DNA of 64,000 bases, from NCBI GenBank assembly GCA_964623495.1, contig CAZUTV010000004.1:16587-80586 (forward strand), read 5' to 3'. The notes below the pieces were generated by a model. That model saw nothing but the letters and a program-made list of their open reading frames with translations, did not search any database and had not been told where the DNA came from. This stretch comes from Candidatus Woesearchaeota archaeon (GTDB lineage Archaea > Nanobdellota > Nanobdellia > Pacearchaeales > GW2011-AR1). Of this stretch, positions 267 to 19,127 are shown one piece after another (positions within the stretch are counted from its first letter, which is position 1; every line of letters begins with the position of its first letter). A program made the translations under genes and the position numbers.

Positions 267-410
267 ATGAAAGAACGGGTATCTGCAACAATTGACGAAT
301 CTACTTCTAGAATAATAGATGAAATGATGAAAAAAGGAAATTACAGAAATAAATCCCATGTCATAGAAGATGCAATTAAACTGCTGAAGGAGAAAAATGG
401 AAAAAAATAA
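267..410 (+). CDS. Ribbon-helix-helix (CopG/Arc-like) small DNA-binding protein, 47 aa (below ORF-track size cutoff)
   Basis: ATG 267 with GAGG 4 nt upstream and TAA at 408-410. Translation MKERVSATIDESTSRIIDEMMKKGNYRNKSHVIEDAIKLLKEKNGKK shows a strand-helix-helix layout. The 3' end overlaps the next CDS start (397) by 14 nt. Confidence 0.6.
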   Translation: MKERVSATIDESTSRIIDEMMKKGNYRNKSHVIEDAIKLLKEKNGKK

Positions 411-1233
411 TAAAAAAGGAACTCGCGCCAGCACTCGTTCTTGGATTACCTCGTGCAAGCGCTCGCAAGTAACAATCTTCATTATTGTGGGAATTTTAAT
501 TGTGGCTGCTGTTTTACTATTCTTATTTTTAAGAAACAAAACAGGGCCCACTGGTGGAGGGCCTGAAGAACAGCCTCAGCCAGAATCTTACCTAGAAACC
601 TGCATGAAAGAAGATGTCTTTGAGGCAATTGACTTAATTTCAATGCAGGGGGGATACAGAAATCCTAGTTTTTACAAAGAATATCAATTTACCGGAGAGC
701 CAGGATTTACAAATATAGCCTATCTCTGTTATACTCCAAATTATTATTCTAGGTGTATAAATCAAAATCCTGTATTTATGACTCACTTAAAAAATGAGCT
801 GGCTGCAGAAATTAACGGCACAGTTAGAGCTTGCTGGAATAAGTTTGGGCAGAGTTTGGAAACGGCAGGGTATGTTGTTGAGGGATTATACCAAGGATTT
901 AATCTTAGTTTTACCCAAACAAAAGCAATAATAGACATTAGAGGACAGTTAACAATGACAAAGAATAATGAAACGACAATAGAAAAAGATATCAAAGTGA
1001 ATATTCCAACAGCATACTATAAAATAGGAGATCTTGTCAATACAATAGTCGGACAGGAGGCATTACATTGCAGTTTTCAAAGTCTTGGGTACATGGTGCT
1101 TCATCCCGGCATTTGGAGGATTAACGAAACCAAAACAAGCGATAGTATTAAGATATATACAATAGAACATAAGAAAACTAAAGAAAGGTTCAGATTTGCT
1201 ATAAGGGGGTGTGTGATACCTCCTGGATTTTAA
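397..1233 (+). CDS. Prepilin-like (class III signal peptide-like) secreted protein, family A; paralog of 5742..6509
   Basis: 278-aa ORF. N-terminus ...KRSQVTIFIIVGILIVAAVLLFL (basic, small residue, Q, hydrophobic helix). Shares ETCMKED../YLCYT..YY..C and the C-terminal PPGF/PPGY motif with the 255-aa ORF. Confidence 0.6.
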   Translation: MEKNNKKGTRASTRSWITSCKRSQVTIFIIVGILIVAAVLLFLFLRNKTGPTGGGPEEQPQPESYLETCMKEDVFEAIDLISMQGGYRNPSFYKEYQFTGEPGFTNIAYLCYTPNYYSRCINQNPVFMTHLKNELAAEINGTVRACWNKFGQSLETAGYVVEGLYQGFNLSFTQTKAIIDIRGQLTMTKNNETTIEKDIKVNIPTAYYKIGDLVNTIVGQEALHCSFQSLGYMVLHPGIWRINETKTSDSIKIYTIEHKKTKERFRFAIRGCVIPPGF

Positions 1234-1234
1234 A

Positions 1235-4200
1235 ATGAAAAAAAGAGTAAAAAAACAAATAAGCCTGTTTTTATCAGCAATAGCAATTATTCAAATCTTG
1301 CTATTAATTAATGCTAACGTGGCTGAGAGTTATTTAGTAAGCAAGACTGAGGAGGTTATTGAAAAAGCCCAGGTTACAGCCAAGAAGAATGATGAGGCAA
1401 GAAGCCTAATAGACAAGGGAGTTAACTTCTTAATAGGATTTTTAAGCATAAAGCAAATAGGGGTTGTTTCTGCGCAAAATATTCAAGAGTGGTGCTGTCC
1501 TGAAATGAAACCTGTTGGAACACAAAACGGAGCAAGATGTGTTCCGCTTTCTTCTGAAAGAGCAAGCGAGTGTATAGATCCTATCCCAACAAAGTGCGAA
1601 AATACTCCGGTGTGTGATACAGGATGTTGTATTCAGCCAACAGGTCAGTGCAGTCTTAATTCTCCAAAAGGAAATTGTACTGCTGGAGGGGGAGTTTGGA
1701 AGGAAGACGAAACCTGCTCTATTCAAGAGTGCAGTCTCGGATGCTGCACTGCAACACACGAGTTAACAACAAGAAAGCAATGCGAAGATTTATCTAGACA
1801 GGAAAATGTGGCCTTAAACTTTCTGGATTCTGTGACAGATGAGCCAACATGCATTGGTTTGCAGTTTAGCGGAATGCAGGGGGCTTGTGTATTTGAGGAT
1901 CAAAGCTGCCAGAGAATTCCCAACGAAGGGATAAGTGACGCACTTGAGTGTGTTAATCAGGGAGGAAAATTCAGCCAGGGAAAGCTATGCTCTCATCCAC
2001 TGCTTAATACAACTTGCACTAGGACAAATTACACTGGATGCGATCCTGCAGTAGTTCTTCCAGAAATCTACTGGTTTGATTCTTGTGGAAATAGGGAGAA
2101 TATTTACAATGCAAACAAAGCAACTAGCTGGAATAATGGAAACATACTTAGCAAAGACTCTAGCTGTGGTGCAGGGACAGGCTCTATAAACAGCCATACT
2201 TGCGGAAATTGCGATTCATTCTTAAACAGCATTTGCTCCCCTTCAACCGGAAGCAACAAGATTAATGACGGAAATTTTATCTGCAAGGATTTAAGGTGCC
2301 ACTATAAAGACCAGTGGAATCATAATGTAACTAAAGACAACGGAGAGAGCTGGTGTGTTTATGATGGAAGCATTGGAAGCGTTAAAAGTCCGTGGAGCCA
2401 TGGACTGAACTTTTCAAGCGATGTTGTCGGAAGCAGGCACTGGAAGTGGTCGTGTGTTGACGGTGAGATAATAAAAGAAGGTTGCATGGACGGAAGGACC
2501 GAGATATGTGCAGAGTCAAGAGTTGATGTTGGTGGAGGAAATAAATTTAGCGTTGCCCAATGCATTGTTAATGAGGGAAAAATGTGTCTTGACTTAAATC
2601 CTCTGCAGTATGTGGAAGATGACAAGCTAATTGACAACACAACACTTATACAAGCGTGCAACGACAATAAATTCTGCGCAATCAAAAAAGTTGATGTTGA
2701 CAAATACTTTAAATTTGATCTTTGCATGCCAAGATATCCTGTTGCCTCAAACTTAAGCGATGGGGTAGATGATGCTGTATGCAAGATGTGGGAGTTCAAA
2801 TGCACGATTGTGGAAGGGAAAAAATTCTTGGGATCTTGGGATTGCAAGGAAAATTGCGGATGCAAGACTGAGAAATTTGTTCAGCAGCTTAACGACGTAT
2901 GTGCTTCATGGAGTGATTGCGGCTCTAAGGTCAATATTGTTGGAAAAGGGACAGATAATTATGTTGTTGAGGGAAAAAACCAGTTTGGCATGGTGAGCGA
3001 GTGCACTTCAAGCGGAATATGCGGGCAGGAGTGCAGGAGAAGCGCACATTGTTTCAATTATACAGGAAGTTTGGCAAAGGGAAACGATATAGCTGGATTT
3101 GGAAACGATATTATAGGGACTAATCCAGGAGAGCATGTAATAAATAAAACTCAGGGAGTATGGTCGTGCCAAAATGTAACTGAGTGGAGCCAAATACAAA
3201 ATAGATACGTTACGCAGCATCTTAACTGCCAAGGAAATAATCCTCTAGAATTGGCTCCTGCAGAAGTAGAGTATTTAATACAAGAATGCAAGACAGTAGG
3301 CACCTGCAATGGAAATAATTTCCAAATGAAACCTCAGATAAAAAGCAAGTTCTCGTGGCAGAATTATACAAAATATGCAAGGCCTGTAAACGGACAGTAT
3401 GCTGAAGTCCCAAATTATGATGAATATATGGCTACAATTCTTGGCGGAGGAGAAATCCCGGCTGTGGGAACTCCTGCATATGGAGAATTCCAAGAAAAGA
3501 CAGTAGACTACCTTTCAGGAATTCCTGGCGCGATTGGATCAACCATAAGTCTTTTGACTTTAACAACCGGAGCTTCAATGTGGGCTTCAGTCACATGGTC
3601 AGCTAGATACGCGGCCACAAAAGTAGGTGCTGCAGCACCTACAGCCCATTTTACAACCCTGGGAACAATTGCGGTTGCGGCAGCTGCCTTCGCTATTGGA
3701 ACATGGGTTGGGGGAAAAATTGCTCAGTCTTTAGGATATACTGGAACATGGGGGACATTACTAGCTTTGTCTTTCGGAGCTGCCTTTGCAGGACTAGCAA
3801 TACTTTTAGTTCCTGGAATTGCTAACTCCTGGAATCCTGTTGGGTGGGTTTTGCTTATTGTTGCATTTATAGGGAGTGTTTTGACTTTCTTGTTTGGAAC
3901 AAGACATAGAGAAAGAGAGGCAACATTTACATGCATGCCTTGGGAAGCTCCTTATGGGGGAGATGATTGTTCAAAGTGCAATGACAATCCAGACAAGCCT
4001 TGCACAAGATACAGATGCGAGAGTTTAGGTCAAGCGTGTGTTTACGTAGGAGATAACATGGAAAATGCGCCGTGTGATGCAATTGAGGATGACGGCAAAC
4101 CTCCAGTCATAACTCCCTTAAAAATTGATTCCGGATATAAGTTTGTAAATACAACCGCAAATAGCACTAAGGTAAGAAGAACAAATAATGCCTGTCTACC

Positions 4201-5752
4201 TACATTCACAGAGGTGGATGTTACTTTCAAGACAGACGAGTATGCAAGATGCAACTGGACAGCTGAAACTACATGGCCAGGAGTAGATATGCCTAGTCCG
4301 TATCCTATAGAAGGTAATGGTTTCATATTTAACCACACTTTCAGAATTAAAATGCCTTCAATCGATATGCTAAATGCAAACGATGTTTCTGGGGACATAA
4401 GGAAGTGGTTTGGAAACATGAATTTCAACATTGCATGCACTGACTTCTATGGGAGAACAAGTTATCCTAAATATAAGGTTAATTTCTGCATTGAAGAAGA
4501 AGATAAAACTCCAGTAAACCACGCATTTACAATATTTGTTCCAAGAACAGACACAAAACTGAAAATAGGAACAACAAGTGTTCCTATAAAAATGCTGATT
4601 AACAAGCCAGCAGAATGTAAATATGATACTAAACCAGGAACAGACTATAGTTCAATGCCTTATACGATGGATTGCAAAACAGGACTTGGTGATTTGGATT
4701 ATGCTTTAGGAGGAAGCGGGTGGCCGTGCACAACAAACATGACTGGTTTAGTAACAGGAGATAATAGAATTTATGTCAGATGCAAGGCACAACCTTATTT
4801 CCCTGCATCCAGACAGAATGAAAGAAGAACTAATGGACAGGATAAAGAATATAACTTAATTGTCACAGACAGCCAGCTTGTAATAGATGACGTCAGTTTC
4901 ACAGCAGATGATATGACTATTGGTGCAGGAGGCAAATTTGTCCTCGGAGGTGCTAATTGTCTTAGTGTAAATATGCAGGTTAGGACAAGTGAAGGGGCTG
5001 ATAACGGAATTGCGACATGCAAATGGGGAATAACAAAAACAGGAAGCAGATGGGACTTCCCTCCTGACGACGGAGTAACTCACAACCAGGTCCTTAACCC
5101 AAGATGCGTGGGAACACATGTAAATTACATTGACTGCTTTGATGGTGCTGGAAATACCGCCTCTGTTGTTGCGAACTTTACTCTTGAAATTGACACTCAG
5201 CCCCCAAGAATAATCAATAATGAAACAATTGATGGAAACATGAGGCTTGAAACAGATGAACTGGCTAATTGCTATTATAATAATTATGCCTGTAGAACAA
5301 ATCCTGCAAATCAGACACCTATAACCCAAGAGAACTTTGAAAGTTTTGAAACAGAGCACTGGATTTACGATTTAAGTCCAAGAAGAGATTATTATGTTAC
5401 ATGTAAGGATGTTTACAATCATACAAACCCAAGTTGCGCAATAATAATAAAAGCAACAGAAGTAGATGATGGAACTCCTCCGATAGCAACAAGAGTTTAC
5501 AACGATGCAGGAAACTTAAAGCTTATAACAAATGAGGCTGCAAAATGTTCATACAGCACAGCAAACTGCAACTTCAATATCAGCAACGGAATATGGCTGG
5601 ATACAGCAGGCGACCAGGAATGGTCTACAGAGCACTTTACTGAGTGGAATCCTAAACAAACCTACCACATAAAATGCAGAGATGACTGGGGAAACACCAA
5701 CCAACCAGAATGTCTTATAATAGTAAAGCCGGAAGAACTTTATGATGATTAA
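1235..5752 (+). CDS. Giant cysteine-rich surface/membrane protein (1505 aa): N-terminal anchor, Cys-rich domain, Gly/Ala/Thr-rich multi-helix membrane segment, then tandem C-terminal domains
   Basis: Uninterrupted 4.5-kb ORF starting 1 nt after the upstream stop. The N-half is colinear with the 570-aa ORF (WFDSCGNRENIYNANK vs FVDSCGNVANIYDANK). The C-half is colinear with the 753-aa ORF (FTCMPWEAPYGGDDCSKCN vs FECKPWQAPLGGKDCEKCN). Many N-x-S/T sequons. Confidence 0.8.
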   Translation: MKKRVKKQISLFLSAIAIIQILLLINANVAESYLVSKTEEVIEKAQVTAKKNDEARSLIDKGVNFLIGFLSIKQIGVVSAQNIQEWCCPEMKPVGTQNGARCVPLSSERASECIDPIPTKCENTPVCDTGCCIQPTGQCSLNSPKGNCTAGGGVWKEDETCSIQECSLGCCTATHELTTRKQCEDLSRQENVALNFLDSVTDEPTCIGLQFSGMQGACVFEDQSCQRIPNEGISDALECVNQGGKFSQGKLCSHPLLNTTCTRTNYTGCDPAVVLPEIYWFDSCGNRENIYNANKATSWNNGNILSKDSSCGAGTGSINSHTCGNCDSFLNSICSPSTGSNKINDGNFICKDLRCHYKDQWNHNVTKDNGESWCVYDGSIGSVKSPWSHGLNFSSDVVGSRHWKWSCVDGEIIKEGCMDGRTEICAESRVDVGGGNKFSVAQCIVNEGKMCLDLNPLQYVEDDKLIDNTTLIQACNDNKFCAIKKVDVDKYFKFDLCMPRYPVASNLSDGVDDAVCKMWEFKCTIVEGKKFLGSWDCKENCGCKTEKFVQQLNDVCASWSDCGSKVNIVGKGTDNYVVEGKNQFGMVSECTSSGICGQECRRSAHCFNYTGSLAKGNDIAGFGNDIIGTNPGEHVINKTQGVWSCQNVTEWSQIQNRYVTQHLNCQGNNPLELAPAEVEYLIQECKTVGTCNGNNFQMKPQIKSKFSWQNYTKYARPVNGQYAEVPNYDEYMATILGGGEIPAVGTPAYGEFQEKTVDYLSGIPGAIGSTISLLTLTTGASMWASVTWSARYAATKVGAAAPTAHFTTLGTIAVAAAAFAIGTWVGGKIAQSLGYTGTWGTLLALSFGAAFAGLAILLVPGIANSWNPVGWVLLIVAFIGSVLTFLFGTRHREREATFTCMPWEAPYGGDDCSKCNDNPDKPCTRYRCESLGQACVYVGDNMENAPCDAIEDDGKPPVITPLKIDSGYKFVNTTANSTKVRRTNNACLPTFTEVDVTFKTDEYARCNWTAETTWPGVDMPSPYPIEGNGFIFNHTFRIKMPSIDMLNANDVSGDIRKWFGNMNFNIACTDFYGRTSYPKYKVNFCIEEEDKTPVNHAFTIFVPRTDTKLKIGTTSVPIKMLINKPAECKYDTKPGTDYSSMPYTMDCKTGLGDLDYALGGSGWPCTTNMTGLVTGDNRIYVRCKAQPYFPASRQNERRTNGQDKEYNLIVTDSQLVIDDVSFTADDMTIGAGGKFVLGGANCLSVNMQVRTSEGADNGIATCKWGITKTGSRWDFPPDDGVTHNQVLNPRCVGTHVNYIDCFDGAGNTASVVANFTLEIDTQPPRIINNETIDGNMRLETDELANCYYNNYACRTNPANQTPITQENFESFETEHWIYDLSPRRDYYVTCKDVYNHTNPSCAIIIKATEVDDGTPPIATRVYNDAGNLKLITNEAAKCSYSTANCNFNISNGIWLDTAGDQEWSTEHFTEWNPKQTYHIKCRDDWGNTNQPECLIIVKPEELYDD

Positions 5753-6509
5753 GAAAAAGAATTTTCGTGGTCAAGTCACCCTATTTGTAATTATAGGTCT
5801 AGTGATAGTTGCAATTGGAATTTTAATTTATTTGTTATATCCAAAAATAAGAGGGCCTCTTGGATTTGATGAAGAAAATCCTTATCAAACAATCCAAACC
5901 TGCCTAGAAGATAATGTTAGAGAAGTGGTTGAAAAGCTTTCTTTAAGCGGAGGAAGTGTTGAACCAGAACATTACATTGTTTATAACGGAGATAACATAG
6001 AATATCTATGTTATACTAACGAGTATTACAAAACCTGTGTTGTCCAGCAGCCTTTGCTAAAGAGGCATATTGAGCTGGAAATACAAACGCAGATAAATGA
6101 AAGAGTCAGAAAATGCTTTTTGGATTTAGAGAGCAATTTTAAGAAAAAAGGCTATACTGTTAATCTAAGGACTGGGGGTGTTGAGGCAGAGCTTCTCCCA
6201 AAGAGGGTTGTTCTTAATTTTAATCATTCGTTAACTTTAACAAAAGAGGGCTCAGATAATTACGATAAGTTTAGTGTTGTCGTGAACAATAATCTTTATG
6301 AATTAATAAGCATAGCAAATAGTATTATCCAGTGGGAAGCAAGATACGGAGATGCGGAAACTACAACTTATATGACTTACTACAGAGACTTGAAAGTTGA
6401 AAAGAAGCTGCAGCAAGAGGGAACAACGATTTACATTTTAACTGACAGAAACAATGAAAATAAATTCCAGTTTGCATCAAGGAGTGTTGCATGGCCTCCA
6501 GGGTATTAG
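5742..6509 (+). CDS. Prepilin-like secreted protein, family A (paralog of 397..1233)
   Basis: 255 aa. N-terminus KKNFRGQVTLFVIIGLVIVAIGILIYLL. NIEYLCYTNEYYKTCVVQQP matches NIAYLCYTPNYYSRCINQNP, and the C-terminus ends WPPGY. Overlaps the upstream stop by 11 nt. Confidence 0.65.
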   Translation: MMIKKKNFRGQVTLFVIIGLVIVAIGILIYLLYPKIRGPLGFDEENPYQTIQTCLEDNVREVVEKLSLSGGSVEPEHYIVYNGDNIEYLCYTNEYYKTCVVQQPLLKRHIELEIQTQINERVRKCFLDLESNFKKKGYTVNLRTGGVEAELLPKRVVLNFNHSLTLTKEGSDNYDKFSVVVNNNLYELISIANSIIQWEARYGDAETTTYMTYYRDLKVEKKLQQEGTTIYILTDRNNENKFQFASRSVAWPPGY

Positions 6510-8203: not shown

Positions 8204-8243
8204 AAATAGTAACATTTAAATATAATAAAGACAGAAAAAGAAC

Positions 8244-8948
8244 ATGAGAAATTTAAGGGATTTGATAAGTAAAGGAAGAAACACACTAGCTGCTTTAGGG
8301 GTTGTTGGAGCACTGGCTTTTGGATATCAAAATGCTTCTGCGCAATCAGTAAGCGATCCTGCCTTACTTTCAATATTCAAAACCTTTGGATTAAGCAGCG
8401 AGAGCCAAAGTGACAGACAACTGGCAGAGTACTTTTTGGGTTGGGGAATGATGGATAGAGAGATGGAAATAGCAAAAGCCGGAAGAAACCAGATAATCAT
8501 TAACAATCAAATATATACTCTTCCTAATGGATATGTTTTTGATAATTCACAAAATCCAGAGGATTTTCGAATAAGGCCTCCTAAAAGGGAATTCTTTACT
8601 TTTGGCAGAATTAATGATAGAAACAGGGATCGTCTATTAGCTAGCGATGAAATGGAAGACATAAAGGACCTCTTCACAACTGATGAAAGTATAAATATTT
8701 GTTTTAATTATGAAACCGGAGAAGATGTAAAAGGGAAAAAATTCTATTTAAGGGTCTTTGATGAGAATGGAAGACAAACCTATCCAACATCATCTCTGAT
8801 TAATCCCTACCCGGATGCATATTGGTTGGCTTCTGGAGGAGCAAATATCGAAAATCCGGGAAGATATACTTTTGAAGTTTACGATGAAAATGATCAACTA
8901 TTAATGTCAAAAACAATCAGAGTGGTTGCTGCAGAAAAAAAAGAATAA
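8244..8948 (+). CDS. Secreted hypothetical protein (234 aa) inserted in module B
   Basis: Sec-type signal LAALGVVGALAFGYQNASAQS. No counterpart in the fused 1505-aa protein and no family recognised. Confidence 0.6.
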   Translation: MRNLRDLISKGRNTLAALGVVGALAFGYQNASAQSVSDPALLSIFKTFGLSSESQSDRQLAEYFLGWGMMDREMEIAKAGRNQIIINNQIYTLPNGYVFDNSQNPEDFRIRPPKREFFTFGRINDRNRDRLLASDEMEDIKDLFTTDESINICFNYETGEDVKGKKFYLRVFDENGRQTYPTSSLINPYPDAYWLASGGANIENPGRYTFEVYDENDQLLMSKTIRVVAAEKKE

Positions 8949-8954
8949 AGAAAA

Positions 8955-11216
8955 ATGTTAAAAAAAGGGGATAAAAAAAAGGTGAAAGGATTAGCACTAG
9001 CTGAAATCCTAATCCTAATTTTAGGAACAATTGCAATTGGCTATGCTTTGGGAAGTGAGGTTAAGTTTGTAAGCTCACAGGGACCAGGAGAAACTGATGA
9101 TATAAGTGAAACTGGAGAAGGAAGTGTTTCTAAATCAGCTGATTCAAAAAAAGATGAGGGGTGGTCACCGGGATTAACCTATCTTCCTCTTGCAACCGGA
9201 GGTTTGGATTTTTTAAAAGGGGGATTATGGGGGCGTGGATCAAGTTCAAGCAGTTCTTCTTCAAGTTCATCTTCATCGGGTTCAGGTGGCGGAACTCCTC
9301 CACCTCCAGACATAGGTCCTGGATCTTTAAACTGGGGACAGGCAGGGAAGCAAATACTTGGAAATGCGGCTCGGGCCGTTGGAATTTATTTTGGTATTCA
9401 GGCACTTGGAAAAAGTTTGTGGAAAGATGAGTCAGGAGTCAATGCATTAAAGTATGCTGTATCAATAGGATTTTTCACAGGAACAACACTTAAAACTCTT
9501 TTATATGATAAAGCATTTTTTGGAAAGAAAATAGGGGAATTTTTGGCTGGAGATAAAATTCTTGGCATTAGTGGCTTTGGGTGGATTGGAATAGCGACAA
9601 CAGTTGTTATTTTCCTTTCACTTTACAAGAAGTCAGATGAAAAAACAATGGTCTTTGAATGCAAACCGTGGCAGGCTCCTTTGGGAGGAAAAGACTGCGA
9701 GAAATGCAACAAGCAAGGTCTTATTCCCTGCACCGAATACCAATGCAAATCTTTAGGACAGGCATGCAATATGACAAATACAGATACTGGCGAAGCAATG
9801 TGCGTCTGGCAAAACAAAAGAGATTCAACTCCTCCTGTAATACAGCCTTGGAGAGAGGTGTTGGCAGATTACTTCTCATACAGGCCAGACAACACTTTAA
9901 GCCTAAAAGACAAAGGAGTTTACATCAAATATAATGACCCAAAACACCAAACAAGAAACGGATGCATTCCTGCATTTATGCCTTTCACTTTTGGGATAAC
10001 TACAGATGAACCCTCGAGCTGTAAGATTGATGATGTGAGAGGGACAACTTTCAATAACATGAAGTGGGATTTGGGTAGCAGTTCAACATTCAAGTACAAT
10101 CACAGCCAGACAATAAGTCTTCCAAGCCCAGAATCTTTAGAAGCAGAGAATATAACTTTGAAAAACGGCGGAAATTACGAATTATATGTAAGGTGTATTG
10201 ATGTTAATGGAAATTTAAAACCAGATTCTCCATCAGGGACTTTTGTGTTCAAATATTGCGTGGATCCTGGGCCAGACACAATGGCTCCTCAGATACTTGG
10301 AACAAGCATACCAACAGGAATGCCAATTGCATACAACCAATCAACCCTTGATTTAGAGGTCTATATTAATGAGCCTGCAGACTGCAAGTGGTCTAGGGAT
10401 AGGGACATGACTTTTGCCAGCATGGAAAACACAATGACCTGCTCCAGAAGTGTTTTTGAAATGAACGCCCAAATGGTTTACAAGTGCTCGACAACATTAA
10501 ACGCTTTAAGGAATAGGATGGAAAATGTCTTCTACTTCAGATGCAAGGACAAACCTTCTGCAGCTGAAAAAGACAGATATGAAATGGCTAGAGGATATAG
10601 ATACGTGGTTATTGGAACTCAACCATTGATAATTGACAAAGTCGGACCTAACGGAACAATAAAAGGATCCACTGATCCTGCACTAATAACTCTAAATGCG
10701 CAGACTTCTGCAGGATACAAAGAAGGAGATGCAACATGCTACTATAGTGAGTCTTGCTGGGATGCAAATGGAAAAAGAGACGAGTACACTATGTTTTACT
10801 ATCCAAGCGGGGAAAGCTCTTACAATCATACGCAGAGCGGATTAGCAGTAAGCGCCGGTACATACAGGTGCAATATTTTATGCAGAGATCTTGGAGGAAA
10901 CACAGACACCAAATCATTCGAGTACAGGGTTGAAATAGACAAAACTCCTCCAAAAGTTGTAAGGATTTACAAGGAAGATAACTTCTTAAAAGTCATAATC
11001 AACGAGAAAGGGCAGTGCGTTTATGGAACTCAGAACTGCAATTACTTATTTGAAGACGGAATATCAATGAATACCTTGGATGACTTAGGATTCTACACTG
11101 ACTGGGACACAACAAAAACTTTCTACATAAGATGCAAAGATGAGTATGGAATCCAGCCTAACTCAAACCAATGCTCGATAGTTGTAAGGCCTGCTGAAAT
11201 TTTTAATGATGGATGA
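8955..11216 (+). CDS. Membrane/surface protein (753 aa), stand-alone homolog of the C-half of the 1505-aa protein
   Basis: N-terminal TM, Ser13 and Gly/Pro linker, then hydrophobic helices. These are followed by FECKPWQAPLGGKDCEKCNKQGLIPCTEYQCKSLGQAC and repeated domains delimited by (T)PP-x-(I/V). The C-terminus FYIRCKDEYG..CSIVVRPAEIFNDG matches YHIKCRDDWG..CLIIVKPEELYDD. Confidence 0.75.
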   Translation: MLKKGDKKKVKGLALAEILILILGTIAIGYALGSEVKFVSSQGPGETDDISETGEGSVSKSADSKKDEGWSPGLTYLPLATGGLDFLKGGLWGRGSSSSSSSSSSSSSGSGGGTPPPPDIGPGSLNWGQAGKQILGNAARAVGIYFGIQALGKSLWKDESGVNALKYAVSIGFFTGTTLKTLLYDKAFFGKKIGEFLAGDKILGISGFGWIGIATTVVIFLSLYKKSDEKTMVFECKPWQAPLGGKDCEKCNKQGLIPCTEYQCKSLGQACNMTNTDTGEAMCVWQNKRDSTPPVIQPWREVLADYFSYRPDNTLSLKDKGVYIKYNDPKHQTRNGCIPAFMPFTFGITTDEPSSCKIDDVRGTTFNNMKWDLGSSSTFKYNHSQTISLPSPESLEAENITLKNGGNYELYVRCIDVNGNLKPDSPSGTFVFKYCVDPGPDTMAPQILGTSIPTGMPIAYNQSTLDLEVYINEPADCKWSRDRDMTFASMENTMTCSRSVFEMNAQMVYKCSTTLNALRNRMENVFYFRCKDKPSAAEKDRYEMARGYRYVVIGTQPLIIDKVGPNGTIKGSTDPALITLNAQTSAGYKEGDATCYYSESCWDANGKRDEYTMFYYPSGESSYNHTQSGLAVSAGTYRCNILCRDLGGNTDTKSFEYRVEIDKTPPKVVRIYKEDNFLKVIINEKGQCVYGTQNCNYLFEDGISMNTLDDLGFYTDWDTTKTFYIRCKDEYGIQPNSNQCSIVVRPAEIFNDG

Positions 11217-11225
11217 AATGAATAA

Positions 11226-11233
11226 TTTATAAA
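11226..11233 (+). promoter_or_regulatory. TATA-box candidate (TTTATAAA), 21 nt before ATG 11255 (leaderless-type spacing)
   Basis: Exact TTTATAAA. The same box at the same 21-27 nt spacing recurs upstream of other first-in-unit genes in this window. Confidence 0.4.
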
Positions 11234-11254
11234 TTCTAATTCTTTATTTGTTTG

Positions 11255-11779
11255 ATGAAAAGAGGAACTCGCGATCCTGCTCACCCATGGATTATATCAC
11301 AAAATCGCTCGGCAATGGAATTATCTTTTGGGATGATTTTTTCAATCATACTTATTATTAGTTTTCTTGCATTTGCAATTTATGCTATACTTACCTTTAT
11401 CAAGACAAGTGACACGGCCAAGATTGCAAGTTTCAGAAAAGACTTTCAAGAGGACATTGACAAGATGTGGAGGGCAACACAAGGAAGCCAAAAAGTCAGC
11501 TATAGTCTTCCCGGCAAAATCAACGAAGTATGCATTGTAAGAAATTACGGAGTTAATTTGCTTTTCTATCCGTTAAATTCTATCGGAGACATTGGCCCTT
11601 TAAATCTAAGCCATATCAATCTAACAACTGCCGTAAAGGCTGGCCGCCAGGGATATAAAGTAAGAAATATCGACGGGGAGAACAGGTACATGGTTTGCTT
11701 CAACAATACAAGGGATAAAGTCAGCATGGTGATAAAAAAGAATTTTGGGGAAAATCTAGTAAATATAAGTGCAAGTTAA
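11255..11779 (+). CDS. Small prepilin-like protein (174 aa)
   Basis: N-terminus MKRGTRDP...NRSAMELSFGMIFSIILIISFLAFAIYAIL resembles archaeal class III signals (compare KGQIAMELGIL-type pilins). I prefer the ATG at 11255 to the TTG at 11252. Confidence 0.6.
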   Translation: MKRGTRDPAHPWIISQNRSAMELSFGMIFSIILIISFLAFAIYAILTFIKTSDTAKIASFRKDFQEDIDKMWRATQGSQKVSYSLPGKINEVCIVRNYGVNLLFYPLNSIGDIGPLNLSHINLTTAVKAGRQGYKVRNIDGENRYMVCFNNTRDKVSMVIKKNFGENLVNISAS

Positions 11780-11780
11780 G

Positions 11781-12734
11781 ATGATTAAAGGAAAAGGCGG
11801 TTTCATGGAAAATTCATTTACCTGGATTTTTGCACTTGTTGTTGGGGGATTTATTCTTTTTCTTGCAATCTTTTTTGCAATAAGACTTACCGGAACAGAA
11901 GAAACGCAAATAGATGTTGTAACAAGCAAAGACATAGGAATCTTAACAAATCCCTTGGAAATCGGTTTTGAAAGCGGGAAGACAACTTTTTTAAGCTTGC
12001 CGACAGAGACAAGGATTTATGGCAATTGCGATAATTCTGGAGAATTTGGAACGCAAAAAATAAGAATATCCCAAAAAAGCCTTGGGGAATGGTCTGAGAC
12101 TCCATTGAATATTTCATTCAAGAATAAATACTTGTTCTCAGAGAGCCCTGTAGAAGGAAGAAGTTTCTATTTATTTTCAAAGCCTTTCGAATTTCCATTT
12201 AAGGTCGCTGACTTGATTTATTTAATTCCAAAAAACAAGTTTTATTGCTTTGTTCTTTCTTCAAACAATCCCTTACATAAAGACATTTCTATGGAAATAA
12301 GAAATCTTAAACTGGATAATGTTAAGAATGTTACTAATGCCAACAATTGCCCTCCTGGAAGCCAAAAAGTCTGCTTCACAAGCACTTGCAATATAACAGT
12401 AAATCTTCAGCAGGAAAAAGTCATAAAGTCTGGAGAAAATCTTTCTTTTTCTGGAAGCACATTAATGTATGCCGCAATTTTTTCAGATCCAGATGTTTAC
12501 AAATGTCAGCTAAAAAGGTTAATGCAAAGAACAGACAATTTAGCTGATTTGTATGAAAAGAAAATTATTTATGTAGGCCAAAAAGGATGCAATGCTAACT
12601 TCAATTTAGCTCTTTTGTCAAGCAGGGCAGATAGCTATAGCAAAGAAAACACCCAGGAAATAAGATCAATTTATACTCAGGTTGTCAAGCAAATAAATGC
12701 CTCAAATGAGGCTGCTGGCTGCAAAATATGGTAA
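11781..12734 (+). CDS. Prepilin-like protein (317 aa)
   Basis: MIKGKGGFMENSFTWIFALVVGGFILFLAIFF. ATG 11781 lies 1 nt after the upstream TAA (the track start at 11769 is GTG). Confidence 0.6.
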   Translation: MIKGKGGFMENSFTWIFALVVGGFILFLAIFFAIRLTGTEETQIDVVTSKDIGILTNPLEIGFESGKTTFLSLPTETRIYGNCDNSGEFGTQKIRISQKSLGEWSETPLNISFKNKYLFSESPVEGRSFYLFSKPFEFPFKVADLIYLIPKNKFYCFVLSSNNPLHKDISMEIRNLKLDNVKNVTNANNCPPGSQKVCFTSTCNITVNLQQEKVIKSGENLSFSGSTLMYAAIFSDPDVYKCQLKRLMQRTDNLADLYEKKIIYVGQKGCNANFNLALLSSRADSYSKENTQEIRSIYTQVVKQINASNEAAGCKIW

Positions 12735-12735
12735 A

Positions 12736-13260
12736 ATGAAAGACAAATCAAGACATGCGCAAATGAAAATCCAGCAAACAGCATTCATGCTTTTAGCTGT
12801 GACTCTGCTTTTTGTGCTTGTAGGATTGGCTGTTTTGGGTTTTAAGCTTGCAGGAATGAAAGGCACAGCATCTGGTCTTGAAGAAGAAAATGCTAAACTC
12901 TTAGTGTCTAAGTTAGCAAATTCTCCAGAATTTGCATGCGGAGATGCTTTTCCAGGAAGAATTAGTTGTATTGATGCAGATAAAGTAATGATGCTAAAAA
13001 GCCAGGAAAGCAAATATTCTGGATTCTGGGGAGTTGCAGATATTGAAATAAGAAAAATCTACCCTAAAAGATCAGGAACAGTTGTTTGCACTACTTCAAA
13101 CTATCCCAACTGCAACCTTATTGAAATAAAATCGACAAAGATAGCAGGAACTTACTATTCAAATTTCATATCCTTATGCAGAAAAGAACTAATAGGAGGG
13201 ACAACTTATGACAGATGCGATCTTGCAAGATTACTTGTAAGTTATGAGAAAAAGACGTAA
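12736..13260 (+). CDS. Small prepilin-like protein (174 aa)
   Basis: MKDKSRHAQMKIQQTAFMLLAVTLLFVLVGLAVLGF. ATG 12736 lies 1 nt after the upstream TAA. Confidence 0.6.
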   Translation: MKDKSRHAQMKIQQTAFMLLAVTLLFVLVGLAVLGFKLAGMKGTASGLEEENAKLLVSKLANSPEFACGDAFPGRISCIDADKVMMLKSQESKYSGFWGVADIEIRKIYPKRSGTVVCTTSNYPNCNLIEIKSTKIAGTYYSNFISLCRKELIGGTTYDRCDLARLLVSYEKKT

Positions 13261-13801
13261 AATGATTAAAAGAATAAAAAATAAAATAGGGCAAGAACAA
13301 AAATCAAAGATTTTAGTAGCTAAGCCTAAAAAGGCCCAGGAGGAAATGGTTGGATTTGCTTTAATTGTTATAATTGTAGCAGTTATATTGCTTATCTTTC
13401 TTAGCCTATCTCTATCTAAGAGAGGTTCTTCAAATATACAAGGCTACGAAGCAGAGAACTTCTTAAAAACCAGCTTGCAGTACACAACAAACTGCGAGTT
13501 TTATAGGGAAGGATATATCTCTTTAGAAACCCTTATCTTTAAGTGTTATGAAAACAAAACCTGTGTAAATGGGAACAATACTTGTGTAATTTTAGGTACT
13601 ACATTTAGAGAGATCTTGAACGAAAGCTGGAGAACAGGTAGTGATAAACCAGTACAGGGATATTCTTTAAACATAAGTATTAATGGGCAGCCATTTAAGG
13701 GGTTTAAAGAAGGCAATAAAACGCAAAACTCAAGGGGAACTACAATTTTAAGGGACAAGGGAGCATCTAGTGCAGAGATAAGCTTTAATGCTTACTATTA
13801 G
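13244..13801 (+). CDS. Small prepilin-like protein (185 aa)
   Basis: ...KPKKAQEEMVGFALIVIIVAVILLIFLSL. Overlaps the previous gene. Last gene of the co-directional cluster. Confidence 0.6.
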   Translation: MRKRRKMIKRIKNKIGQEQKSKILVAKPKKAQEEMVGFALIVIIVAVILLIFLSLSLSKRGSSNIQGYEAENFLKTSLQYTTNCEFYREGYISLETLIFKCYENKTCVNGNNTCVILGTTFREILNESWRTGSDKPVQGYSLNISINGQPFKGFKEGNKTQNSRGTTILRDKGASSAEISFNAYY

Positions 13802-14151
13802 ACCTTAAAGTTGATTGTTAAAGTATCTACCACAATCTCTGGTCTGTGCTTGATTCTTTTCTTTGTCTTTTCTTCTACAAATTCTATAAACCCAAACCGT
13901 TCAAGAAGCTTTAGATCATCATTTACTGCCTTAAAGGTGCGACCAAGCTTTTTAGCCAGATCGTAGATTGAAGAGGGATTTTGATGTTTTATTGCATGCA
14001 AAATACGGGCTTTTTCATTGCTTAAAAGGCCTCTTAATGCGGAAATTCCTTCAAAATCGTACTCTTTTTTTGCAACTCCGAGCCTTGTAAAGAAGTTAAA
14101 GGCCCCTTCCTCCTCCTGCAAGGTTATTTCTCTCAGTTTGGTCTTCGCCAT
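13798..14151 (-). CDS. Winged helix-turn-helix transcriptional regulator (117 aa)
   Basis: LLSNEKARILHAIKHQNPSSIYDLAKKLGRTFKAVNDDLKLLERFGFIEF is an ArsR/MarR-like wHTH pattern. Confidence 0.65.
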   Translation of the reverse strand: MAKTKLREITLQEEEGAFNFFTRLGVAKKEYDFEGISALRGLLSNEKARILHAIKHQNPSSIYDLAKKLGRTFKAVNDDLKLLERFGFIEFVEEKTKKRIKHRPEIVVDTLTINFKV

Positions 14152-17354: not shown

Positions 17355-17930
17355 ATGGAAGTAAAGAAGATAGTAACAAAGGCAGATAGTGAAAAGAAAA
17401 GAAGACGAAACCAAATCATTATAGGGGGAATATTGATATTTGTCATGTTTTTCAGTGTTTTGGGATATACTTTCGGGGATAATAGCAACGGGAATGCAAA
17501 AAAAATAGTGTATAATGGCTACGAATTTGTATATGAAAATGGCTTTTGGAAAGCAAGTATTGGGAATTTTGTTTTTTTCTTCACATACAATCCTGAAGAG
17601 GTTTGGAAAAGCGACGCTAATTTAAACCTGCTCAACAAATATTCTGGAAAACCCTTGTACATCTCTTCAGACAGTATAGATGCTGAATCAGAGCTGTACA
17701 GAAACATTGATCAAATAATACTAAGAAGGCAGTATGCCTGCCTTCAGGGAGAGAATTGCACGGATTCCGGACTGCCTGTAAAAACCTGCGAGGACAATTT
17801 TATAATAATCAAGGAGAGTAATGTCAGCTCTATAAGACAGGACAATAACTGCGTTTTTATAGAAAGCCCATTTGAAAATTTAACGGCAACGACAGACGAA
17901 TTTTTATTCAAGATAATAGGCATAGAATAG
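17355..17930 (+). CDS. Hypothetical N-terminally anchored secreted protein (191 aa)
   Basis: KKRRRNQIIIGGILIFVMFFSVLGYTF anchor. No family recognised. Confidence 0.5.
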   Translation: MEVKKIVTKADSEKKRRRNQIIIGGILIFVMFFSVLGYTFGDNSNGNAKKIVYNGYEFVYENGFWKASIGNFVFFFTYNPEEVWKSDANLNLLNKYSGKPLYISSDSIDAESELYRNIDQIILRRQYACLQGENCTDSGLPVKTCEDNFIIIKESNVSSIRQDNNCVFIESPFENLTATTDEFLFKIIGIE

Positions 17931-19098: not shown

Positions 19099-19117
19099 AC
19101 AGCTAGAAGTGAAAATG

Positions 19118-19127
19118 TATTTAAATA
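19118..19127. promoter_or_regulatory. Palindromic TATA-like box TATTTAAATA between the divergent archaeosortase-like and PAP2 genes
   Basis: 19 nt from ATG 19098 (minus strand) and 19 nt from the in-frame ATG 19147 (plus strand). Confidence 0.3.

What the first reader, a model, noticed from the sequence alone, without database searches (positions are those of the whole stretch)
267..13801. 13.5-kb co-directional surface locus: prepilin-like proteins interleaved with giant cysteine-rich membrane proteins of no recognisable family
Eleven same-strand genes are packed with overlaps or gaps of 40 nt or less, and every gene after the RHH regulator encodes an exported or membrane protein. Six have N-termini built like archaeal class III (prepilin) signals: basic residues, a small residue, Q/M/E, then a hydrophobic helix. 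Examples are FRGQVTLFVIIGLVIV, KRSQVTIFIIVGILIV, RSAMELSFGMIFSIILI, GGFMENSFTWIFALVVGG, HAQMKIQQTAFMLLAV and KKAQEEMVGFALIVIIV. Between them lie a 1505-aa protein and its split equivalents (570 + 753 aa). These are dense in Cys and N-x-S/T sequons. I cannot place them in any family. No assembly ATPase, platform protein or prepilin peptidase is present in the window. The locus sits next to the S-layer gene and an archaeosortase-like gene. My hypothesis is a pilus-like or adhesive surface apparatus, possibly for host or cell contact in a DPANN-type archaeon, whose large subunits are undescribed.
Basis: partly seen in the sequence, partly recalled or inferred. Interest (0 to 1): 0.85.

Follow-up and report, generated by a model that had tools for sequence, protein, structure and literature searches.

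The report
Conserved pilin-like surface operon in Pacearchaeota
A 13.5-kb operon kept in the same gene order in hundreds of tiny symbiotic (DPANN) archaea encodes six or seven type-IV-pilin-like proteins and huge disulfide-rich membrane proteins of unknown family, which makes it a good but unproven candidate for their cell-surface attachment apparatus.

Summary
Eleven same-strand, tightly packed genes (267-13801) start with an RHH regulator. The rest all encode exported or membrane proteins.

- **Class III signals:** Ortholog alignments show six small families sharing a canonical archaeal class III (prepilin) N-terminus, K-[KR]-[G/A/S] | Q followed by a hydrophobic helix. The 753-aa protein carries a related one.
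- **Giant proteins:** The 1505-aa protein equals the 570-aa plus 753-aa proteins. The 278-aa and 255-aa proteins are paralogues. The locus is therefore an old tandem duplication of a "pilin-like + giant" module.
- **Giant architecture:** Cys-rich ectodomain with no detectable relatives, a Gly/Ala-rich membrane helix bundle, a Cys knot, then 4-5 Ig-like domains.
- **Family searches:** No Pfam, NCBIfam, PDB or Foldseek assignment beyond generic Ig arrays.
- **Conservation:** Gene order, including the downstream HTH regulator and S-layer-like gene, is kept across Pacearchaeota and Woesearchaeota. 238 species genomes encode a relative of the giant.
- **Missing parts:** No assembly ATPase, platform protein or prepilin peptidase lies in the window or within 10 kb in any relative.
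- **Correction:** N-glycosylation sequons are not enriched.

Best reading (about 0.5): a surface or adhesion assembly related to type IV filaments, whose motor and peptidase are encoded elsewhere. This is analogous to bacterial minor-pilin/PilY1 operons. An S-layer anchoring scaffold is the main rival. I found no published description. I rate it a new variant of a known kind.

The parts
267..410 (+). G1: 47-aa ribbon-helix-helix (CopG-type) regulator, first gene of the operon. It overlaps the G2 start by 14 nt.
   Evidence: Pfam RHH_1, E=4e-7, 30.2 bits against a 20.5-bit cut-off. An RHH gene sits at the same position in relatives.
397..1233 (+). G2: 278-aa pilin-like protein with class III-type N-terminus (KRS|QVTIFIIVG), one TM helix and a globular ectodomain. 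It is the partner of giant G3 and a paralogue of G4.
   Evidence: 28% identity to G4, E=3e-37. In the family alignment Q(+1) and F(+5) are invariant in 57 sequences, -1 is G/A/S and -2 is K/R. No Pfam or NCBIfam family.
1235..5752 (+). G3: 1505-aa giant membrane protein. In order: N-terminal hydrophobic helix, Cys-rich ectodomain (about aa 85-580), lineage-specific insert (about 588-705), Gly/Ala-rich TM bundle (about 760-890), Cys knot, then Ig-like domains. One Ig-like domain is extra (about 1327-1418).
   Evidence: 80 Cys. 427+ homologues, all 'hypothetical' with no Pfam domain. About 50 invariant Cys in the family alignment. Private insertions mapped. The model of orthologue P0039 has pLDDT 79.7. 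Foldseek returns only tandem Ig/Fn3/cadherin arrays for the C half.
5742..6509 (+). G4: 255-aa pilin-like protein (FRG|QVTLFVIIG). It is the most conserved protein of the locus and the partner of G5/G7.
   Evidence: This is the only small protein here that matches the strict FlaFind pattern. 1488 homologues, 60-82% identical among the best 120. 539 cluster representatives at E<=1e-30, all about 250-270 aa. AF2 model with pLDDT 87.6: TM helix 9-32, disordered linker 33-46, compact alpha/beta domain. No structural neighbour in PDB or BFVD.
6491..8203 (+). G5: 570-aa secreted Cys-rich protein, the free-standing equivalent of the G3 N-terminal ectodomain. It has an ordinary Sec-type signal; the true start is possibly downstream of 6491.
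   Evidence: 29% identity to G3 residues 65-570. 47 Cys, 8.2%. Orthologue N-termini are classical signal peptides ending ...VSA|EVSYCCEKT. Only 5% show a [KR][GA] motif.
8244..8948 (+). G6: 234-aa secreted accessory protein in a variable slot between G5 and G7.
   Evidence: Homologues appear only in L070, L072 and L076. Other lineages carry unrelated or divergent small proteins with lipoprotein-like signals at this position.
8955..11216 (+). G7: 753-aa membrane protein, the equivalent of the G3 N-terminal helix plus its C half. In order: class III-like N-terminus (KVKG|LALAEILILILG), Ser/Gly/Pro-rich linker, Gly-rich TM bundle, Cys knot, Ig-like domains.
   Evidence: 25% identity to G3 residues 828-1410. 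Matches the FlaFind pattern. 66% of orthologues have [KR][GA] before the helix, and a polar Q/E is conserved inside it. About 25 Cys are invariant in the family alignment, mostly paired within domains. Weak Y_Y_Y and Big_3_3 hits.
11252..11779 (+). G8: 175-aa small pilin-like protein. Here the signal reads NRS|AMELSFGMIFS; the orthologue consensus is KRG|QMKLSFGMIFS.
   Evidence: Alignment of 22 orthologues. Position frequencies. A long helix-prone stretch without Pro or Gly follows the TM segment (sequence; inference).
11769..12734 (+). G9: 321-aa protein (317 aa as called by the public gene call), the largest of the four small pilin-like proteins. Here KGG|FMENSFTWIF; consensus KKG|YL[EQ]ISFAWLFA.
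   Evidence: 943 homologues, all hypothetical, same lineage. Alignment; position frequencies.
12697..13260 (+). G10: 187-aa small pilin-like protein. Here RHA|QMKIQQTAFML; consensus KKA|QLKIQQMAFML.
   Evidence: Q(+1), K(+3) and I(+4) are invariant; Q(+5) and Q(+6) occur in 22 of 23 sequences.
13244..13801 (+). G11: 185-aa small pilin-like protein (KKA|QEEMVGFALIVIIV).
   Evidence: Q(+1), E(+3), G(+6) and F(+7) are invariant in 20 sequences. hhalign similarity to G8, G10 and G2/G4 is confined to the N-terminal signal and helix.
13798..14151 (-). 117-aa HTH regulator (HVO_A0114 / MarR-like), convergent with the operon. It is always found between G11 and the S-layer-like gene.
   Evidence: Pfam HVO_A0114, E=5e-18. 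Same position in relatives.
14537..17215 (+). 892-aa secreted S-layer-like protein with a Sec signal and no C-terminal anchor. It is the conserved downstream neighbour of the operon.
   Evidence: No family hit here. Orthologues carry weak Pfam S_layer_C hits. Conserved adjacency. Fastest-evolving gene of the neighbourhood.

Best explanation
This is a core, vertically inherited cell-envelope operon of Pacearchaeota and Woesearchaeota. I read it as encoding a surface assembly related to type IV filaments.

Proposed mechanism:
1. Six small proteins (G2, G4, G8-G11), and probably G7, enter the membrane with class III signals. A prepilin-type (FlaK/EppA-like) peptidase encoded elsewhere removes the signals, leaving an N-terminal Gln and a hydrophobic helix.
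2. The four small, mutually distinct proteins G8-G11 act like minor pilins. They would form a short pseudopilus or a tip/priming complex.
3. G2 and G4 are membrane-tethered globular partners of the Cys-rich ectodomains.
4. The large proteins provide a membrane-embedded base (Gly-zipper helix bundle). They also provide disulfide-stabilised, Ig-domain-bearing ectodomains that reach into or through the S-layer to bind a surface or host.
5. One module (G4-G5-G7) is the conserved structural copy. The other (G2-G3) is the faster-evolving, sometimes multiplied copy, presumably facing the partner.

Shown: the signals, the paralogy, the domain architecture, the conservation and the synteny.

Inferred: cleavage, assembly, the division of labour between modules, and adhesion as the function.
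For: - Class III motif with basic -2, small -1, Gln +1 and a hydrophobic helix is conserved in six families. Family-specific polar residues at +2 to +6 are also conserved, as expected for helices that pack against each other.
- Similarity between the small families is confined to this N-terminal segment, as in pilins.
- Four small pilin-like genes occur in a fixed order next to large non-pilin partners.
- All cysteines are conserved and mostly paired within domains. The Sec signal on G5 places the large domains outside the cell.
- The C half is a chain of Ig-like domains, like adhesins and S-layer proteins.
- The G2-G3 module is less conserved (41% and 36% median identity) than G4-G5-G7 (57%, 45%, 43%). 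It is present in extra copies in L021, L022, L024, L041 and L069.
- Pilin genes lying apart from their machinery are common in archaea, and large Ig-fold adhesin-like proteins are frequent in archaeal TFF loci (PMC4858521; bioRxiv 10.64898/2026.04.22.720090).
- flaI, flaJ and flaK are reported in most Woesearchaeota MAGs (PMC11606122; PMC8407392).
- Pacearchaeota are strongly host-attached. In the same groundwater, ultrasmall cells of unassigned identity carry pili-like appendages (PMC7906910).
Against: - No ATPase, platform protein or A24 peptidase is in the window, in the 10 kb beyond each end of the window, or within 10 kb of the locus in about 80 relatives. I could not check that they exist in the same genomes.
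- The G4 model has its TM helix separated from the globular domain by a disordered Pro/Gly linker. This is unlike filament-forming pilins.
- No small protein matches any curated pilin family.
- The giants are polytopic membrane proteins and cannot ride on a pilus.
- No candidate major pilin was identified.
- Class III signals also occur on non-pilus proteins, for example Sulfolobus sugar-binding proteins.
- G8-G11 are absent next to G7 in 7 of 27 informative loci.
- The number of membrane helices between the two ectodomains (3 or 4) is unresolved.
Confidence: 0.5

Rival explanations
1. S-layer anchoring or envelope scaffold. The operon builds the membrane-bound stalks and spacers on which the anchor-less S-layer-like protein encoded just downstream is mounted. 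This would be functionally like SlaB for SlaA in Sulfolobales. The pilin-like N-termini serve as stable single-helix membrane anchors, cleaved or not, and no filament is made.
For: - The order G11, HTH, 892-aa S-layer-like gene is conserved in nearly every locus that extends that far.
- The 892-aa protein has a Sec signal but no C-terminal TM segment or PACE-CTERM signal.
- The giants combine a membrane bundle with long Ig-domain arms. One Foldseek hit is the Deinococcus HPI S-layer.
- The whole neighbourhood is envelope-related: pacearchaeosortase, a PACE-CTERM S-layer protein and PAP2.
- The lack of ATPase and platform is no problem for this model.
- The tethered-globule model of G4 fits an anchor better than a filament subunit.
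Against: - Six or seven different pilin-like proteins plus two paralogous giant modules is far more complex than known S-layer anchors.
- The strict conservation of the -2/-1/+1 cleavage-site residues and of polar residues at the start of the helix is not needed for a plain anchor.
- The genome already has a sortase-based anchoring system for its other predicted S-layer protein.
- Adjacency alone does not show interaction.
Confidence: 0.25
2. The N-termini are ordinary signal anchors, and the locus is a co-regulated set of independent surface proteins such as receptors, binding proteins or enzymes. It has no relation to type IV filament biology. The [KR][GA]Q motif reflects lineage-specific membrane-insertion preferences.
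For: - No pilin family match and no linked machinery.
- The G4 globular domain has no structural relatives, so it could be anything.
- Another conserved neighbour (17355-17930) has a similar but non-canonical KRKNQ + helix N-terminus. This hints at a lineage habit.
Against: - The motif is absent from the Sec-signal protein G5 and rare in G3, although both are exported by the same cell.
- It is concentrated in this locus within the window.
- It matches the experimentally defined archaeal prepilin cleavage rule, including the Gln at +1 typical of EppA substrates in Methanococcus (my knowledge of Szabo et al. 2007; not re-tested here).
- Strict co-linearity over hundreds of species argues for a physical complex.
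Confidence: 0.12

Closest known systems
Bacterial minor-pilin / large-adhesin operons (P. aeruginosa fimU-pilVWXY1E; T2SS GspH-I-J-K)
   Same: - Several different small pilin-like genes (four here, G8-G11, one clearly larger) sit in a fixed order.
- They are encoded together with a large non-pilin surface protein.
- They lie apart from the ATPase, platform and peptidase genes.
   Different: - No sequence or fold homology was detected.
- The large partners here are polytopic membrane proteins with a Cys-rich domain and Ig arrays. They are not beta-propeller/vWA proteins.
- There are two paralogous large modules, each with its own 260-aa pilin-like partner.
- The host is an archaeon.
Methanococcus maripaludis Epd pili / EppA substrates (archaeal TFF 'system 1', also reported in some DPANN)
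   Same: - Class III signals with basic -2, Gly/Ala -1 and Gln at +1.
- Multi-gene cluster with several minor pilins and adhesin-like proteins (my knowledge for the Gln +1 rule).
   Different: - The Epd cluster includes its own peptidase, ATPase and two platform genes. None is here.
- No match to the Pfam DUF361/Class_IIIsignal family.
- The Epd cluster has no giant Cys-rich membrane proteins.
Ig-fold 'adhesin-like' accessory proteins of archaeal TFF loci (e.g. arCOG05616, arCOG07037; Makarova 2016; Sivabalasarma & Albers 2026)
   Same: - Large secreted proteins rich in Ig-like folds and conserved cysteines.
- Encoded beside pilin genes, sometimes with S-layer-like proteins.
   Different: - Those loci are centred on an ATPase and a platform protein.
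- The proteins here carry a central multi-helix membrane domain and a roughly 500-aa Cys-rich domain with no detectable relatives.
- Homology to those arCOGs could not be tested with the tools at hand.
Sulfolobus bindosome (class III-signal sugar-binding proteins assembled by BasABC/BasEF)
   Same: Class III signals sit on globular, non-filament proteins that stay at the cell surface. This resembles the tethered-globule model of G4.
   Different: - The bindosome needs a dedicated ATPase and platform (BasE/F) encoded alongside.
- Its cargo proteins are recognisable solute-binding proteins. G2 and G4 have no recognisable fold relatives.
SlaA/SlaB S-layer pair of Sulfolobales
   Same: Membrane-anchored proteins are encoded next to an anchor-less S-layer-type protein.
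   Different: - SlaB is a single coiled-coil stalk with a C-terminal TM helix.
- It involves no pilin-like proteins, no Cys-rich domain and no duplicated modules.

Membership tests
Archaeal type IV pilin-like proteins (class III signal peptide substrates) | N-terminal class III signal: short basic n-region, K/R at -2, G/A (rarely S) at -1, followed at once by a hydrophobic helix of 20 or more residues | tested here: met
   Position frequencies in 20-57 orthologues per family: -2 is K/R, -1 is G/A/S, +1 is Q (invariant in G2/G4, G10 and G11; 19 of 22 in G8; Y/A/F in G9). Only G4 and G7 match the strict FlaFind regular expression in this window.
Archaeal type IV pilin-like proteins (class III signal peptide substrates) | Cleavage by an A24-family prepilin peptidase (FlaK/PibD/EppA) encoded in the same genome | not testable with these tools
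   None is in the 64-kb window or in the 10 kb beyond each of its ends. The literature reports flaK in most Woesearchaeota MAGs.
Archaeal type IV pilin-like proteins (class III signal peptide substrates) | Pilin fold: one long N-terminal alpha-helix whose C-terminal half packs on a beta-sheet head | tested here: inconclusive
   Only G4 was modelled. Helix 9-32 is followed by a low-confidence Pro/Gly linker (33-46) and a separate alpha/beta domain, which is not the classical continuous helix.
Archaeal type IV pilin-like proteins (class III signal peptide substrates) | Match to a curated pilin family (Pfam Class_IIIsignal/DUF361, archaeal Pilin_N, NCBIfam pilin models) | tested here: not met
   No such hit for the window proteins. 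No such hit for 125 orthologues scanned one by one at E<=1.
Complete type IV filament (TFF) system | Hexameric secretion ATPase (FlaI/PilB/VirB11 type) encoded in the locus | tested here: not met
   No T2SSE hit and no secretion-type Walker A in the window. None in the gene lists of relatives. A Walker A pattern scan over ORFs longer than 250 aa in all loci found only one ABC-type hit.
Complete type IV filament (TFF) system | Polytopic platform protein (FlaJ/TadC/PilC) encoded in the locus | tested here: not met
   All window ORFs with 4 or more predicted TM helices were scanned and assigned to other families, except the 480-aa ORF at 48234-49676. That one was not scanned and is inferred to be SecY from its position. 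The assigned families are sortase, PAP2, M50, AI-2E, SpoIIM, STT3, GT4, LPG synthase and PMT.
Complete type IV filament (TFF) system | A filament-forming major subunit | tested here: inconclusive
   No small protein stands out as a major pilin. G8, G10 and G11 (mature size about 130-160 aa) have pilin-like sizes, but nothing shows polymerisation.
Minor-pilin / PilY1-type tip complex (functional analogy only) | Large partner homologous to PilY1/PilC (beta-propeller, often with vWA) | tested here: not met
   Foldseek hits for the giant are only tandem Ig/Fn3/cadherin arrays. No Pfam hits.
MltG/YceG endolytic transglycosylase (suggested by a weak hit to G4) | YceG catalytic domain recognisable by profile or fold | tested here: not met
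   Pfam YceG E=0.007, 16 bits against a 32-bit cut-off. Only 2 of the 125 small-protein orthologues scanned, 36 of them G2/G4 members, hit it. The confident G4 model has no PDB neighbour, with TM-scores below 0.25.
SlaB-type S-layer anchor | Coiled-coil stalk with a single C-terminal TM helix, encoded beside the S-layer gene | tested here: not met
   Adjacency to an S-layer-like gene is met. The architecture differs: a central 3-4-helix bundle between two ectodomains.

The most novel reading that the evidence does not exclude
The operon may be a self-contained envelope machine that needs no dedicated type IV ATPase. In this reading the Gly-zipper helix bundles of the giant proteins oligomerise into a membrane conduit. 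The four minor-pilin-like proteins and the Cys-rich ectodomains form a short spike through the S-layer that contacts or breaches the host envelope. That would be the long-sought device by which Pacearchaeota and Woesearchaeota attach to hosts and take up their lipids, nucleotides or DNA. It would be a new kind of cell-cell contact or uptake apparatus that borrows only the pilin N-terminus from type IV filaments.
Probability: 0.12. Interest if true: 0.9.

Novelty: new variant of a known kind. Interest (0 to 1): 0.6.

Why it matters
Pacearchaeota and Woesearchaeota are among the most abundant and least understood DPANN archaea. None is cultured, and how they hold on to and feed from hosts is unknown. 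This operon is one of the few large, lineage-wide, strictly syntenic gene sets made up entirely of surface proteins. It sits in a core chromosomal position, between PCNA/primase and the S-layer gene.

Recognising six or seven of its products as class III-signal, pilin-like proteins has three consequences:
- It ties about 10 'hypothetical' families to a known assembly logic. They probably belong to the Pacearchaeota/Woesearchaeota-specific unknown families noted in bulk by Castelle et al. 2021 (PMC8204110).
- It gives concrete, testable targets for metaproteomics (the mature N-terminus), cryo-ET and heterologous cleavage assays.
- It flags a roughly 500-residue disulfide-rich domain and a 210-residue alpha/beta domain with no detectable structural relatives.

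Tried and rejected
- **Pfam and NCBIfam on all ten proteins**. Only sub-threshold noise appeared.
- **YceG/MltG hint for G4.** I followed it and rejected it.
- **PDB sequence-profile searches** with the G2/G4 and giant families. Nothing was found.
- **Foldseek of the G4 model** against PDB and BFVD. No neighbour was found.
- **Foldseek of the giant model.** Only generic Ig arrays appeared, and nothing for the Cys-rich domain.
- **hhalign between the small families.** Similarity was limited to the N-terminal helix.
- **Per-member Pfam scan of 125 small-protein orthologues.** No pilin family matched. A few weak DUF7248/DUF7287 hits were not pursued.
- **The 130-aa ORF at 21596-21988** looked like a possible major pilin (KS|QENSFGAWMF). 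It is a small four-helix membrane protein, so I rejected it.
- **Apparent separation of G9 from the giants in some NCBI genomes**, inferred from locus tags. For the two genomes looked up it turned out to be contig breaks inside the locus.
- **Walker A pattern scan of the ORFs longer than 250 aa in all fetched loci** for a linked secretion ATPase. None was found.
- **Exhaustive profile search with the G2/G4 family.** It returned 539 cluster representatives at E<=1e-30, all with the same roughly 255-aa architecture, so it gave no bridge to a known family.
- **Literature searches** for a description of this operon. None was found.
- **Mobile element or virus origin.** I rejected it because of the conserved core-chromosome context.

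Full report
**1. What is in the sequence**

Window positions 267-13801 hold eleven + strand ORFs. Junctions range from a 38-nt overlap to a 40-nt gap.
- G1, 267-410, 47 aa
- G2, 397-1233, 278 aa
- G3, 1235-5752, 1505 aa
- G4, 5742-6509, 255 aa
- G5, 6491-8203, 570 aa
- G6, 8244-8948, 234 aa
- G7, 8955-11216, 753 aa
- G8, 11252-11779, 175 aa
- G9, 11769-12734, 321 aa
- G10, 12697-13260, 187 aa
- G11, 13244-13801, 185 aa

G1 is a CopG-type ribbon-helix-helix protein (Pfam RHH_1, E=4e-7). Every other product begins with a hydrophobic segment.

All-against-all BLASTP shows an internal duplication.
- G2 resembles G4 (28% identity, E=3e-37).
- The N half of G3 resembles G5 (29%, E=2e-50).
- The C half of G3 resembles G7 (25%, E=2e-42).

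Cysteine makes up 5.3%, 8.2% and 3.1% of G3, G5 and G7. It is 0.51% in 19 housekeeping proteins of the same window. N-x-S/T sequons are not enriched (21 observed against 15.8 expected in G3; 2 against 5.9 in G5). That detail of the finding does not hold.

**2. No known family**

None of the ten proteins reaches a Pfam or NCBIfam threshold. The best G4 hit, YceG/MltG, scores 16 bits against a 32-bit cut-off. It recurs in only 2 of the 125 small-protein orthologues scanned, 36 of them from the G2/G4 family. Profile searches of the G2/G4 and giant families against all PDB sequences return nothing meaningful.

**3. The organism and the neighbourhood**

Homologues of G3, G4 and G9 number 427, 1488 and 943 respectively. 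All are 'hypothetical' and without Pfam domains. Where named, they come from Candidatus Pacearchaeota, Woesearchaeota or Nanoarchaeota MAGs.

The window also holds a pacearchaeosortase (18571-19098, NF033505, 214 bits). It holds a PACE-CTERM 'putative S-layer protein' as well (19762-21444, NF033506, 394 bits). Elsewhere it carries FtsZ, SepF, ribosomal proteins, AglB/STT3 and glycosyltransferases.

The window has no secretion ATPase, platform protein or A24 peptidase. Every scanned ORF with four or more predicted TM helices belongs to another family. The exception is 48234-49676, which was not scanned and is inferred to be SecY. The 10 kb beyond each end of the window has none either.

**4. 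Conservation**

A scan of one genome per species found relatives of the giant protein in 238 genomes, and 78 loci were fetched. I mapped the window proteins onto all ORFs of these loci.

The recurring order is RHH, G2, G3, G4, G5, G7, G8, G9, G10, G11, then an HTH gene on the opposite strand, then an S-layer-like gene.
- G3-G4-G5 are consecutive in 61 of 62 loci.
- G8-G11 follow G7 in 20 of 27 loci with enough downstream sequence.
- Seven loci, from a distinct sub-lineage, stop at G7.
- Two apparent separations of G9 from the giants in NCBI genomes were contig breaks inside the locus.
- G6 occupies a variable slot. Other lineages have divergent small proteins with lipoprotein-like signals there.
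- Some genomes carry one or two extra G2-G3 modules (L021, L022, L024, L041, L069).
- Against the window, G4-G5-G7 are better conserved (median 57%, 45%, 43% identity) than G2-G3 (41%, 36%).

The upstream neighbours in relatives are PCNA and primase. This is core chromosome, not a mobile element.

**5. The small proteins carry class III (prepilin-type) signals**

I aligned orthologues on the start of the hydrophobic helix. Position counts were then taken around the predicted cleavage site.

| Family | n | Residues before and after the predicted cleavage site |
|---|---|---|
| G2/G4 | 57 | K, R/K, G/A/S, then Q (57/57), V/I, T/S, I/L, F (57/57) |
| G8 | 22 | K, R/K, G/A/S, then Q M K L S F G M |
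| G9 | 24 | K, K/R, G/A, then Y/A/F L E/Q I S F A W |
| G10 | 23 | K, K/R, A/G, then Q (23/23) L K I Q Q M A F |
| G11 | 20 | K, K/R, A/G, then Q (20/20) E E M V G F |

This is the archaeal prepilin cleavage rule: basic at -2, small at -1. From my knowledge of the literature, Gln at +1 is characteristic of EppA substrates in Methanococcus. I did not re-test that here.

In this window G2 and G8 have Ser at -1. G9 and G10 lack the basic residue at -2.

A crude motif test gives 73-91% for the six families, 66% for G7, 18% for G3 and 5% for G5. The motif is therefore not a general property of exported proteins in these cells.

G5 orthologues have plain Sec signals (...VSA|EVSYCCEKT). G7 orthologues begin [KR]G-x-LAL[ST][QE]I, with a conserved polar residue inside the helix.

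Profile-profile comparison shows the small families resemble each other only in this N-terminal segment. That is what is seen for pilins. None matches a curated pilin family.

**6. Structures**

G4 was modelled with 50 homologues and gave a confident model (pLDDT 87.6). It has a TM helix at 9-32, a disordered Pro/Gly linker at 33-46, and a compact alpha/beta domain at 47-255. This domain has no structural neighbour in PDB or BFVD, with TM-scores below 0.25. G4 thus looks like a membrane-tethered globular protein, not a classical filament subunit.

A full-length orthologue of the giant (P0039, 1178 aa, 57-sequence alignment) gave pLDDT 79.7. Its parts, in order:
- an N-terminal hydrophobic helix;
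- a roughly 500-residue Cys-rich alpha/beta ectodomain;
- a low-confidence stretch;
- three long helices (598-682), preceded by a fourth moderately hydrophobic, nearly uncharged Gly/Ala-rich segment;
- a small Cys knot;
- four to five beta-sandwich domains.

Foldseek finds only tandem Ig/Fn3/cadherin arrays for the C half (PTP-delta, titin, desmoglein, Deinococcus HPI S-layer, the GhpA grappling hook). It finds nothing for the Cys-rich domain.

About 50 cysteines are invariant across the family, mostly paired within the Ig-like domains of the C half. G5 has a Sec signal, so the Cys-rich domain is extracellular. By inference the C half is also extracellular, which requires an even number of membrane helices. 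That point is unresolved.

The window's G3 has private insertions at about 588-705. It also has an extra Ig-like domain at about 1327-1418.

**7. Interpretation**

Shown:
- a lineage-wide, strictly syntenic operon;
- six or seven products with prepilin-type N-termini;
- two paralogous sets of large disulfide-rich, Ig-bearing membrane proteins;
- a position next to an S-layer-like gene.

Inferred:
- A prepilin peptidase encoded elsewhere cleaves the small proteins.
- G8-G11 act like minor pilins, forming a short pseudopilus or a tip/priming complex.
- G2 and G4 partner the Cys-rich ectodomains.
- The giants form the membrane base and the outward-facing arms.

Published context is compatible with this reading.
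- Pilin genes often lie apart from their machinery in archaea, and Ig-fold adhesin-like proteins are common in archaeal TFF loci.
- flaI, flaJ and flaK are reported in most Woesearchaeota MAGs.
- Pacearchaeota are unusually strongly host-attached. In the same groundwater, ultrasmall cells of unassigned identity bear pili-like appendages.

The main evidence against:
- the complete absence of linked machinery in about 80 loci;
- the non-classical G4 model;
- the polytopic nature of the giants;
- the lack of an identifiable major pilin.

I put this model at about 0.5. An S-layer anchoring or scaffold role is the main rival (0.25). It is supported by the invariant adjacency to an anchor-less S-layer-like protein. 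A set of unrelated surface proteins with plain signal anchors is less likely (0.12), given the specificity and conservation of the cleavage-site residues.

**8. Comparison with known systems and novelty**

The locus works most like bacterial minor-pilin/large-adhesin operons, or like the accessory parts of archaeal type IV filament loci. It fails the membership tests for a complete TFF system, because it has no ATPase and no platform protein. It also fails the tests for curated pilin families, PilY1, MltG and SlaB.

I found no description of this operon in the searchable literature. Castelle et al. 2021 mention 51 Pacearchaeota/Woesearchaeota-specific families of unknown function, many membrane-bound or extracellular. 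These proteins probably fall among them.

I class the locus as a new variant of a known kind. The small proteins use the type IV pilin entry route. The giant partners, the duplicated module architecture and two confident domains without structural relatives are new.

**9. Limits**

- I could not check for a prepilin peptidase, ATPase or platform protein in the same genome.
- G8-G11 were not modelled, and no multimer predictions were possible.
- The membrane topology of the giants is unsettled.
- All functional statements are inferences from sequence, models and synteny.

Noticed in passing
window 18571-21444 (- strand genes) with 19138-19761 (+): A pacearchaeosortase (NF033505, 214 bits) and a 560-aa PACE-CTERM 'putative S-layer protein' (NF033506, 394 bits; CARDB-like domains) flank a PAP2 phosphatase. 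This is a second, sortase-based surface-protein system directly beside the operon and the 892-aa S-layer-like gene. Together they make a roughly 21-kb cell-envelope supercluster.
   Followed up: partly
window 17355-17930 and 17967-18581: Two small single-pass membrane proteins (191 and 204 aa) follow the S-layer-like gene. They are conserved in relatives (L012, L016, L037, L050, L051). The first has a near-class-III N-terminus (KRKNQ + helix, Asn at -1). No family was found for either.
   Followed up: partly
window 8244-8948 (G6); L048 17181-18053, L055 9054-9761, L066 16189-16812, L074 16503-17132: The slot between the secreted Cys-rich gene and the membrane half holds a variable small exported protein. 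In other lineages it carries a lipobox-like signal (...LSGC, ...LAAGC, ...LTGC). Some copies share an 'AKAGR' motif with G6.
   Followed up: partly
L021, L022, L024, L041, L069 (also L011, L062): Some relatives carry two or three tandem copies of the 'small pilin-like + full-length giant' module upstream of the split module. This suggests copy-number variation of the variable module.
   Followed up: no
window 32343-32465 (-): Rfam finds a 123-nt tRNA (41 bits) that ARAGORN does not call. It is probably an intron-containing archaeal tRNA, and it lies next to tRNA-Thr at 32239-32313.
   Followed up: no
window 53399-63700 and L082 beyond the window end: There is a large glycosylation and cell-envelope cluster. 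It holds AglB/STT3 (932 aa), GT4, a polysaccharide deacetylase, two or three FemAB-like/GNAT genes, an LPG-synthase-like TM protein, PMT_2, DUF354, a UDP-GlcNAc 2-epimerase and DegT. FemAB-like genes are unusual in an archaeon.
   Followed up: no
L081 230-5625 (upstream of the window start, - strand): Two large proteins (747 and 1039 aa) with no Pfam hit lie just upstream of primase/PCNA. Relatives have 430-, 604- and 511-aa unknown proteins at the same place.
   Followed up: no
window 6491-6590: The apparently conserved 'MASRI/MAAGIW' start of the G5 ORF lies in the region that overlaps the highly conserved C-terminus of G4 (...AWPPGY). It may therefore be an alternative-frame artefact. The real G5 start may be the Met just before the signal peptide.
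   Followed up: no
window 22958-23350 and 25818-26912 (-): SepF and FtsZ are encoded a few kb apart, on the far side of the envelope cluster from the operon.
   Followed up: no
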